DNA from: a virus
Lineage: Duplodnaviria > Caudoviricetes
IMG/VR virus record: IMGVR_UViG_3300025314_000006
Strand: one strand, 5' to 3'
DNA: 64,000 nucleotides
In this document: one piece after another, positions 12,190 through 15,010 of the stretch
Layout: the number at the start of each line of letters is the position of its first letter
Numbering within the stretch: position 1 is the first letter of the stretch
Made by a program: the position numbers and the translations under genes
The notes under the pieces: generated by a model
What the model saw: only the letters and a program-made list of their open reading frames with translations
Databases searched by the model: none
What the model was told of the DNA's origin: nothing

Positions 12190-12960
12190 TTAAAATACAA
12201 ATTTTAAGACTTTAATATTATTTACTTTTTCACTATATCCAAAATTTCTAATTTCATCATGTATTTCTATGTGACAATTTGCACAAACCATAATACATTT
12301 ATCAACTTCTACTTTTAATCTTTCAAAACCATAAGATTTGCCACCAATAGTAAAATCTTTTTCACTTGGATTTGTATGATGAAATTGTAAAACTGATGTT
12401 GATTTATTATATCCACAACATTCACATTTCCATCCTTTATATTCAATTAATCTAATTTTACTTCTTTTTCTCCAATCTATAACAGCCTGACTTTTGGTTT
12501 TAGTTTTTTGTCTTTTTTTATTTGTTTTAATCAAATCATCAGAAATGTAATTTCTAATTGTTGTCCTATCTACCTTAAAATAAGCGGCTGTTTTTCTTAA
12601 AGACTTACTTTCTATATAAAAATTAACAACTTCTATTTCAATAAGTTCTTTTTTCTTAAATGTACCACTTGATTTATTTAATCCATACAAATTACATATT
12701 TTAATTAACTTATCTTCTCCAATGTCCAAAATTGACCTTATTTCGTCATAGCTTTTCAATTCTCTTCTGTAAGCAATTATTTTGTTTATAACTTCATCAG
12801 TTATTCCAATTAAAAAACTGTTTCTTACTCCGCCAAGTCCAACATTATTTATGTGATAAGACACAGTGCTTTTTGAACACTTTAATTGTTCAACTATTTC
12901 TTTTATAGTTGAGCCTTTTTCTCTTAAAGAGATAATTTTATTTTTCAAACCTTTATCCAT
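12190..12960 (-). CDS. HNH homing endonuclease with N-terminal HTH repeats
   Basis: KCECCGY...LQFHH...CIMVCANCHIEIH; likely start MDKGLK at 12960. Confidence 0.85.
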   Translation of the reverse strand: MDKGLKNKIISLREKGSTIKEIVEQLKCSKSTVSYHINNVGLGGVRNSFLIGITDEVINKIIAYRRELKSYDEIRSILDIGEDKLIKICNLYGLNKSSGTFKKKELIEIEVVNFYIESKSLRKTAAYFKVDRTTIRNYISDDLIKTNKKRQKTKTKSQAVIDWRKRSKIRLIEYKGWKCECCGYNKSTSVLQFHHTNPSEKDFTIGGKSYGFERLKVEVDKCIMVCANCHIEIHDEIRNFGYSEKVNNIKVLKFVF

Positions 12961-13031
12961 ATTATTAACTTTATTTGTTAATAAATATGGGATAAAATTC
13001 AAAAAAACAAAATTTATTTCAAAGAACGTTG

Positions 13032-14121: not shown

Positions 14122-14401
14122 TCTCGGGTTTTCTGATAATTTGCCGTTGTCATACTGATTAGAGTCGAACTAATCGTGTTGCGTTTCTACATTTCTACAA
14201 TTTACATTTTTACAAAGTCGGCCTTTTTGATTCTATTGCCTTTTCCATAAGGATGTCTTGTGAGACTTGTTTTTTGTATTTATCTCCTTTCGAAGTTAAT
14301 TACTATGAACGTTTTTTAGAAACTTTCTTGAAACTATCTGGTGTATCGTCACCTGAACCTATCCGGTAAATGTTGCCGGAACCATCCATACTGGCCCGAG
14401 A
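14122..14401 (-). ncRNA. Candidate ~280-nt structured RNA directly downstream of the coiled-coil gene
   Basis: 7-bp closing stem TCTCGGG/CCCGAGA; CCGG/CCGG and GGTG/CACC hairpins; T-arm-like GATTAG-TTCGACT-CTAATC (14157-14175); four TGTARA repeats. Confidence 0.5.
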
Positions 14402-14407
14402 ATGTTT

Positions 14408-14944
14408 TTATTCAGAACTCATAAGAGATTCTAAATCTACATGAGAAAAAGAAAGCTCTATTGTTTTTTGATTTAATATTTCAATTTCATTTTGAGTGGT
14501 TCTGTACTTTGTTTTGAAGTGTGAAATTTTACTTTTCACTTCCGTAGAAGTAACAGCCGGAATATATTCAACTTTTATTGATTTTCTTGTTCCGTTTCCA
14601 AGGTTCTCAAATTTTGTTGTTTTTGTTGGTTTAGTGCGAGCTAATGCATTTTCATAAATTGATAATAGCAATTTGTTATTATGCATAGAGCGAACTTTAT
14701 TGTCTACTTGATTTTCTTTGTTAAAAGAAGAAATCTTTGAATTTATTTCTTCAGAAAATCCAAGGGCTTTTTCCAAACGAGAAACAGCTTCTCCAAATTT
14801 TTTAATATCTGCCTCATCAGTAATGACCTGGTCATCTTCTTTAGTTGAACCAAGTGGAGCTCTAAAAGTTTCACTTTGAATAGATTGAACTGATTTAGAA
14901 ATTTCATTTTTAAGTCTTAGTGCTTCTGATACAGTAATGTTCAT
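14408..14944 (-). CDS. Coiled-coil protein (DIP1984/DUF6847-like)
   Basis: N-terminal SEALRLKNEI and C-terminal QNEIEILNQKT pattern; own promoter TTTG-19-TACATTTG at 14979-15009. Confidence 0.5.
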   Translation of the reverse strand: MNITVSEALRLKNEISKSVQSIQSETFRAPLGSTKEDDQVITDEADIKKFGEAVSRLEKALGFSEEINSKISSFNKENQVDNKVRSMHNNKLLLSIYENALARTKPTKTTKFENLGNGTRKSIKVEYIPAVTSTEVKSKISHFKTKYRTTQNEIEILNQKTIELSFSHVDLESLMSSE

Positions 14945-15010
14945 GATGATATATTTTAATTATTTATTGTTTGGGATACAAATGTAATAATAAATTTAAT
15001 ACAAACAAAT

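What the first reader, a model, noticed from the sequence alone, without database searches (positions are those of the whole stretch)
14122..15009. Promoter, coiled-coil gene and ~280-nt structured RNA: a candidate protein-ncRNA pair
A dedicated sigma promoter (14979-15009) drives a DIP1984-like gene, followed 6 nt after its stop by a closed RNA domain with several hairpins, a T-arm mimic (GATTAG-TTCGACT-CTAATC) and four TGTARA repeats. Inference: a ribonucleoprotein such as a type III toxin-antitoxin-like or Y-RNA-like pair.
Basis: partly seen in the sequence, partly recalled or inferred. Interest (0 to 1): 0.6.

Follow-up and report, generated by a model that had tools for sequence, protein, structure and literature searches.

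The report
Unnamed RNA paired with DIP1984-like gene
Right behind a small gene of unknown function, this huge bacteriophage encodes a real, conserved, folded 280-base RNA that is in no RNA catalogue and follows the same protein family in phages and bacteria, so the two probably form an undescribed protein-RNA particle.

Summary
Confirmed. In a 503-kb phage contig, a host-type (Bacteroidota) promoter precedes a 178-aa gene. The gene is a distant DIP1984/DUF6847 relative (best PDB match 3KDQ), and the model predicts a homodimer. Six bases after the stop, a 280-nt closed RNA begins. All 26 loci examined for this subfamily (down to about 30% protein identity) carry the RNA. Covariation supports a closing stem, an AGUA/GAA bulged-G motif, a short pseudoknot, further hairpins and an optional T-arm (31 of 37 pairs show compensatory changes). 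A row of UGUAAA-like units repeats every 7-8 nt. In two complete phage genomes the RNA occurs once, beside the single gene copy. More distant phage and bacterial DIP1984-like genes also carry closed RNAs with a period of 7, sometimes inside RtcAB/RtcB or tRNA-array loci. Rfam has no match and no paper was found. It fails the defining tests for type III toxin-antitoxin and Ro60/Y RNA. Best reading: protein dimers bind along the periodic row to form a ribonucleoprotein, perhaps acting under translation stress or RNA damage. Binding, expression and function are inferred, not shown. This scan noted the same module earlier in other genomes.

The parts
14979..15009 (-). Bacteroidota housekeeping-sigma-type promoter (-33 TTTG, 19-nt spacer, -7 TAnnTTTG)
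   Evidence: -7 element upstream of 18/24 homologs, full pattern 11/24; consensus from own knowledge
14408..14944 (-). 178-aa gene, distant DIP1984/DUF6847 relative; long helical hairpin with a beta-hairpin; predicted homodimer; conserved basic residues outside the predicted dimer interface
14122..14401 (-). 280-nt structured non-coding RNA (whole element)
   Evidence: present in 26/26 subfamily loci; covariation
14395..14401 (-). P1 5' strand (pairs with 14128-14122)
   Evidence: 7/7 pairs with compensatory change, 94.6% paired
14122..14128 (-). P1 3' strand, followed by a short U-run (14117-14112)
14386..14392 (-). AGUA strand of a bulged-G (sarcin-ricin/loop E type) motif plus P2 5' strand
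   Evidence: AGUA/GAA flanked by helices in 24/26 loci; P2 covaries; motif sequence as in PMC1865062
14131..14136 (-). P2 3' strand and GAA strand of the bulged-G motif
14363..14385 (-). pseudoknot module: hairpin P3 (14379-14376 with 14366-14363) whose loop (14372-14370) pairs with 14385-14383
   Evidence: P3 97.5% paired; pseudoknot 91% paired with 5 pair types at one position; absent in distant loci L034-L036
14337..14356 (-). hairpin P4 with conserved loop (G-N-C-G-A-W)
   Evidence: 6-7 of 7 pairs compensatory
14311..14334 (-). probable hairpin P5 (weak support)
   Evidence: 83% paired, only 1 compensatory pair
14220..14240 (-). short stem P7 with conserved A-rich loop
   Evidence: 92% paired in 12 aligned rows
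14176..14214 (-). periodic row of five UGUAAA-like units, 7-8 nt apart; proposed protein-binding track
14157..14175 (-). tRNA-type T-arm (optional)
   Evidence: 20/26 subfamily loci (19 by pattern, L022 by reading); 7/18 canonical DIP1984 loci

Best explanation
A two-part cassette: host RNA polymerase transcribes the gene and RNA together from the promoter, and the 280-nt RNA folds into a closed domain (inferred to be released as a stable species). The protein forms homodimers (predicted). Several dimers bind along the row of 7-8-nt UGUAAA units through a conserved basic face (N-terminal EALRxKN helix plus K137/K141/K144/R148), giving a ribonucleoprotein. The folded parts (bulged-G motif, pseudoknot, optional T-arm) are displayed for other partners. 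Most likely job (about 0.3 on its own): acting under translation stress or RNA damage, as a scaffold or decoy that mimics rRNA/tRNA features, which for a phage would serve as counter-defence. Shown: linkage, RNA structure by covariation, periodicity, fold family. Predicted: dimer. Inferred: expression, processing, binding, role.
For: The RNA follows the gene in 26/26 subfamily loci with variable neighbours. An RNA-first pattern scan of IMG/VR found only the 3 contigs that carry the gene. One gene copy and one RNA copy, adjacent, in two complete phage genomes. Covariation: 31/37 pairs, 0/500 shuffles, slid controls far lower. A period of 7-8 nt persists across three divergent groups while the unit sequence changes (lag-7/8 z 10, 17 and 6). 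Homodimer score 0.69 vs best control 0.00; this mark was reached by 20/30 solved dimers and 1/23 monomers; runs agree in at least 95% of contacts; pLDDT at least 88. Conserved basic residues lie outside that interface. Context: rtcR-gene-RNA-rtcA-rtcB in L073, gene-RNA-rtcB in L077 and relatives, an RNA ligase after the RNA in L034, tRNA arrays next to several loci.
Against: No expression, processing or binding data. The dimer pass may reflect likeness to solved 3KDQ. Most subfamily loci have no RNA-repair gene or tRNA nearby, and RtcB occurs in only 2/5 carrier phages, far from the gene. tRNA-adjacent phage loci are mostly one clade. The protein family is not strongly basic overall (median pI 6.4). 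The thermodynamic model does not leave the row more unpaired than average (0.48 vs 0.47). The periodicity z-scores use mononucleotide shuffles of related sequences.
Confidence: 0.55

Rival explanations
1. A toxin-antitoxin or sequestration pair of a new type: the RNA row titrates a toxic or membrane-active helical protein, which is released when the RNA decays.
For: Strict one-to-one linkage and co-transcription; repeated units suit titration of several protein copies; the cassette sits among varied neighbours.
Against: No RNase, HEPN or PADLOC match. The RNA is downstream, so it cannot be made in excess by an internal terminator as in type III systems. Bacterial copies sit inside RNA-repair operons. 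The 'septicolysin' label on DIP1984 proteins is an annotation, and no paper testing it was found.
Confidence: 0.2
2. A cis-acting 3' element of the gene's own mRNA: the protein binds the row for feedback control or mRNA stabilisation, with no free RNA.
For: Always directly after the stop codon and on the same strand; periodic units resemble TRAP/HutP-type sites.
Against: An elaborate, covarying 200-280-nt structure with closed ends, a bulged-G motif, a pseudoknot and a T-arm is far more than a binding site needs. An earlier unchecked scan note reports head-to-tail joined transcripts for a relative (not tested here).
Confidence: 0.15
3. A cis-regulatory leader or riboswitch for the downstream gene or tRNA cluster.
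For: In this phage and close relatives tRNA genes follow.
Against: Downstream genes differ from locus to locus. Intrinsic-terminator-like hairpins follow the RNA in L002, L010, L023, L024, L027, L035, L138 and L140 (sequence). A second promoter (14083-14052) lies between the RNA and tRNA-Phe.
Confidence: 0.05
4. The RNA is a ribozyme or tRNA/rRNA-like decoy acting alone, and the protein is a passenger or unrelated structural protein.
For: The bulged-G motif, pseudoknot and T-arm are compact tertiary modules.
Against: The RNA was not found without the gene, and RNA type changes in step with protein clade.
Confidence: 0.05

Closest known systems
Ro60 (Rsr) with bacterial Y RNAs YrlA/Yrn1 (PMC4201824)
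   Same: Cognate ncRNA next to its protein gene, 5'/3' ends paired, T-arm, found in phages and in rtcBA operons. The P4 loop reads GNCGAW, resembling YrlA's GNCGAA Rsr motif.
   Different: Partner is a 178-aa helical hairpin, not a TROVE ring; no TROVE gene in 5 carrier phage records; no D-arm; the GNCGA-like motif sits about 50 nt in, in a hairpin loop, without the final G; Y RNAs have no periodic row.
Type III toxin-antitoxin systems (ToxIN, CptIN, TenpIN)
   Same: Protein gene plus co-transcribed, pseudoknot-containing RNA with repeats.
   Different: No endoribonuclease fold; RNA downstream rather than upstream; a single folded domain with 7-8-nt units instead of 34-57-nt tandem repeats.
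DIP1984 / DUF6847 family (NF038048, PF20935, PDB 3KDQ)
   Same: Same fold and a weak profile match; canonical members also carry a closed downstream RNA with a period of 7, often GGUA/GAG at its base and a T-arm.
   Different: This protein is below the family cut-offs; its RNA is a distinct sequence family (model R1 does not hit canonical loci). No RNA partner was found described for the family in the literature searched.
TRAP and HutP periodic RNA sites (Bacillus)
   Same: Short units at fixed spacing, suited to binding by an oligomer.
   Different: Those are leader sites for attenuation; here the row is embedded in a large closed RNA after the gene, with 7-8-nt spacing and an unrelated protein fold.
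OLE, GOLLD and ROOL large ncRNAs
   Same: Ornate ncRNAs of unknown role, some phage- or tRNA-array-associated; OLE has a cognate adjacent protein gene.
   Different: No Rfam match; smaller; partner is a soluble helical dimer.

Membership tests
Type III toxin-antitoxin | Toxin is a ToxN/CptN/TenpN endoribonuclease | tested here: not met
   Confident model (pLDDT 95.9) is a helical hairpin whose best match is 3KDQ; no such Pfam or PADLOC hit among 117 homologs
Type III toxin-antitoxin | Antitoxin is an upstream tandem array of 34-57-nt repeats followed by a terminator | tested here: not met
   RNA is downstream; only an 8-nt-period array of 4 copies is found
Type III toxin-antitoxin | Protein toxic, RNA neutralises it | not testable with these tools
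   needs an expression assay
Ro60-Y RNA | Ro60/TROVE partner protein | tested here: not met
   The adjacent gene is DIP1984-like; PF05731 not found in 5 carrier phage records, 4 of them at least 90% complete. This window's own whole genome could not be searched.
Ro60-Y RNA | GNCGAAN(0-1)G motif near the 5' end | tested here: not met
   Only a partial GNCGAW in the P4 loop about 50 nt from the 5' end, no final G
Ro60-Y RNA | tRNA-like domain with D and T arms (YrlA) | tested here: not met
   T-arm in 20/26 loci, no D-arm; no Rfam or ARAGORN hit
DIP1984/DUF6847 protein family | Profile score above curated cut-off | tested here: not met
   No NF038048 or PF20935 hit for the protein itself; 10/117 homologs hit PF20935, best E 1.9e-6
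DIP1984/DUF6847 protein family | 3KDQ-type fold and remote homology | tested here: met
   3KDQ is the top hit by profile (E 9.4e-5), Foldseek (E 3.6e-3) and VIA-align (Z 10.7, rmsd 6.5, 144 aligned)
Catalogued Rfam families | Covariance-model score at gathering threshold | tested here: not met
   No hit on the element in the window (E up to 5) or behind the gene in 40 related loci
Bulged-G (sarcin-ricin/loop E) motif | AGUA opposite GAA between two helices | tested here: met
   24/26 loci, inner helix covaries; 3D geometry not testable; no GNRA cap, so not a full sarcin-ricin loop

The most novel reading that the evidence does not exclude
DIP1984/DUF6847 proteins and their downstream RNAs form a widespread, undescribed class of ribonucleoprotein in which protein dimers polymerise on a 7-8-nt periodic RNA track. 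The RNA displays rRNA- and tRNA-like modules (bulged-G motif, T-arm) to decoy or redirect ribotoxins or RNA-repair enzymes; bacteria use it in Rtc operons and huge phages use it as counter-defence.
Probability: 0.3. Interest if true: 0.9.

Novelty: categorically new. Interest (0 to 1): 0.7.

Why it matters
It would give a structurally solved but functionally blank protein family (DIP1984, often annotated 'septicolysin') an RNA partner. It would also add a new class of prokaryotic ribonucleoprotein shared by several bacterial phyla and huge phages. The parts are small and soluble, and a cultured phage (Vibrio phage Vp_R1, VPR_086) carries a relative, so the hypothesis is directly testable. The bulged-G motif and the links to Rtc operons point to RNA-damage biology in phage-host conflict.

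Tried and rejected
Rfam and ARAGORN: no match. Literature: 'DIP1984' gave 1 unrelated genomic-surveillance paper, 'DUF6847' none, and '3KDQ' nothing relevant. Combined-term searches found no paper on the pair. The supplement of the viral structured-RNA catalogue (PMC10690425) is not held, so inclusion there is unchecked. My first pairing guess (14395-14388 with 14155-14143) was dropped: no covariation, whereas P2 with 14136-14134 covaries. A PspA/ESCRT-III likeness (VIA Z 8.8, rmsd 10) is within the noise for helical bundles and was not used. tblastn against cultured phages and plasmids found nothing close. The 5'-half model found nothing in 141 genomes of the phylum of G005, which is uninformative. 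A second RNA pattern scan was too strict and uninformative. CcrColossus homolog not located by profile. Left out of the periodicity set: near-duplicates, L045 (false hit), L050, L069 (weak 21% hit with no gap), L079 (RNA interrupted) and L097. The window's whole genome is not held.

Full report
Setting. The window belongs to a 503,412-bp contig (CACVIJ010000001), 27-30% G+C around the finding, with 16 tRNA genes. Homologs lie on 173-519-kb viral contigs, so this is a huge phage. The promoter consensus points to a Bacteroidota host (own knowledge).

Observation. The promoter (15009-14979), ORF (14944-14408), 6-nt gap, closing stem (14401-14122), T-arm (14175-14157) and four TGTARA units (14214-14184) are all present. 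The repeat array is unique in the window and never arose in shuffles. The promoter pattern is not enriched in the window. However, its -7 element lies upstream of 18/24 homologs against a 10% background, and the full pattern upstream of 11/24. It is a host housekeeping-type promoter rather than one for a dedicated sigma.

Protein. It has 26 close and 121 remote representative homologs. It hits no family above cut-off. The 117-sequence profile finds PDB 3KDQ (C. diphtheriae DIP1984) as top hit (E 9.4e-5), and ten members hit DUF6847. The AlphaFold model (pLDDT 95.9) is a long helical hairpin with a beta-hairpin. Its best structural match is again 3KDQ, and it matches uncharacterised phage proteins, including one of Vibrio phage Vp_R1. 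A homodimer is supported: score 0.69 vs best control 0.00, a mark reached by 20/30 solved dimers and 1/23 monomers, with at least 95% contact agreement and pLDDT at least 88. The pass may reflect likeness to 3KDQ. Conserved R10, K12, N13, K137, K141, K144, R148, Q151 and N158 lie outside the predicted interface and form a candidate RNA-binding face (inference).

RNA. All 26 subfamily loci examined carry a 200-285-nt closed RNA starting within about 15 nt of the stop codon, whatever the flanking genes. On 24 aligned sequences, 87.7% of cells pair and 31/37 pairs show compensatory change; 0/500 shuffles reach this and slid controls give at most 52% (relatedness inflates shuffle tests). The architecture is as follows. 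P1 is followed by an AGUA/GAA internal loop, then a 2-3-bp P2. This loop is flanked by helices in 24/26 loci and matches the sarcin-ricin/loop E motif sequence (PMC1865062), but it lacks the GNRA cap. Next comes a pseudoknot in which 14385-14383 pairs with the loop of P3 (91% paired, five pair types at one position); it is absent in the most distant loci. Then follow P4 with a conserved loop, a variable region and P7. After these lies a row of 5-7 UGUAAA-like units spaced 7 or 8 nt (55 of 95 intervals, most others near multiples), and a T-arm present in 20/26 loci. Rfam has no match. An RNA-only pattern scan of IMG/VR returned just the three contigs that carry the gene. Two complete phage genomes hold one gene and one RNA, adjacent.

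Wider family. More distant DUF6847-like genes in phages and in Verrucomicrobia, Lentisphaerae, Armatimonadota and others are also followed by closed RNAs with A-rich units of period 7 (z 17 at lag 7). Canonical NF038048 genes carry another RNA type with period 7. That type has a GGUA/GAG junction with an inner stem in 11/18 loci and a T-arm in 7/18; GGUA/GAG is only an inferred analogue of the bulged-G motif. Vp_R1 gene VPR_086 (173 aa, weak profile hit, E 2.8e-4) is followed by a 215-nt gap that folds with z -3.6. Some bacterial copies lie in RNA-repair contexts: rtcR-gene-RNA-rtcA-rtcB (L073) and tRNAs-HNH-sigma-gene-RNA-rtcB (L077). tRNA arrays flank several loci. Most phage loci lack such neighbours, and RtcB was found in 2/5 carrier phages, far from the gene.

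Mechanism. Most likely the pair forms a ribonucleoprotein (about 0.75): dimers bind along the periodic row, and the folded modules are presented to other partners. The role I favour, a scaffold or decoy under translation stress or RNA damage, rests on the rRNA/tRNA-like modules and the Rtc/tRNA contexts and is weak (about 0.3). Rivals are a new sequestration-type toxin-antitoxin pair (0.2), 3' autoregulation (0.15), a leader for downstream genes (0.05) and an RNA acting alone (0.05).

Comparison. It works somewhat like Ro60-Y RNA (cognate RNA, closed ends, T-arm, Rtc context) but fails membership: no TROVE partner, no D-arm, and only a partial Rsr motif. It fails type III toxin-antitoxin membership on fold and layout. 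No paper on the pair was found. Earlier AI notes of this scan describe the same module in at least ten other genomes. I had reached the pairing before reading them, took the periodicity and pseudoknot leads from them and tested both here. Their report of a circular transcript was not testable here. What this locus adds is the covariation-supported bulged-G junction and pseudoknot in the huge-phage subfamily, the dimer model with a free basic face, and a cultured phage for testing.

Verdict. A real, conserved, uncatalogued RNA tightly paired with a DIP1984-like gene; probably a new kind of ribonucleoprotein, function unproven. Interest 0.7.

Noticed in passing
window 14083-13836 (-): A second Bacteroidota-type promoter (14083-14052) precedes a 29-codon ORF (13979-13890) and a terminator hairpin (13861-13836). 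The hairpin's 5' arm overlaps a stretch (13865-13857) complementary to 13918-13910, an attenuator-like leader in front of tRNA-Phe and the tRNA cluster.
   Followed up: no
   Followed up: no
window 12190-13002 (-): HTH/HNH-type probable homing endonuclease gene between tRNA-His and tRNA-Asn.
   Followed up: no
L073:653-5444: Verrucomicrobia MAG with rtcR divergent from a DUF6847-like gene, its RNA, rtcA and rtcB.
   Followed up: partly
L077:73-4525 (also L065, L068, L070): Opitutaceae cassette: tRNA genes, HNH, sigma-70-type factor, DUF6847-like gene, RNA, RtcB; two copies in the Nibricoccus MAG (L070, L071).
   Followed up: partly
L150:1256-1992 (Vibrio phage Vp_R1, MG603697 42455-43191): A cultured phage carries a distant homolog (VPR_086) followed by a 215-nt strongly folding gap with short repeated units.
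   Followed up: partly
BFVD hits: Structural relatives in Caulobacter phage CcrColossus, Erwinia phage pEa_SNUABM_47, Catovirus and Yasminevirus; downstream RNAs not examined.
   Followed up: no
L034:4811-5482: An RNA ligase (PF09414) gene directly follows the RNA in one phage.
   Followed up: partly
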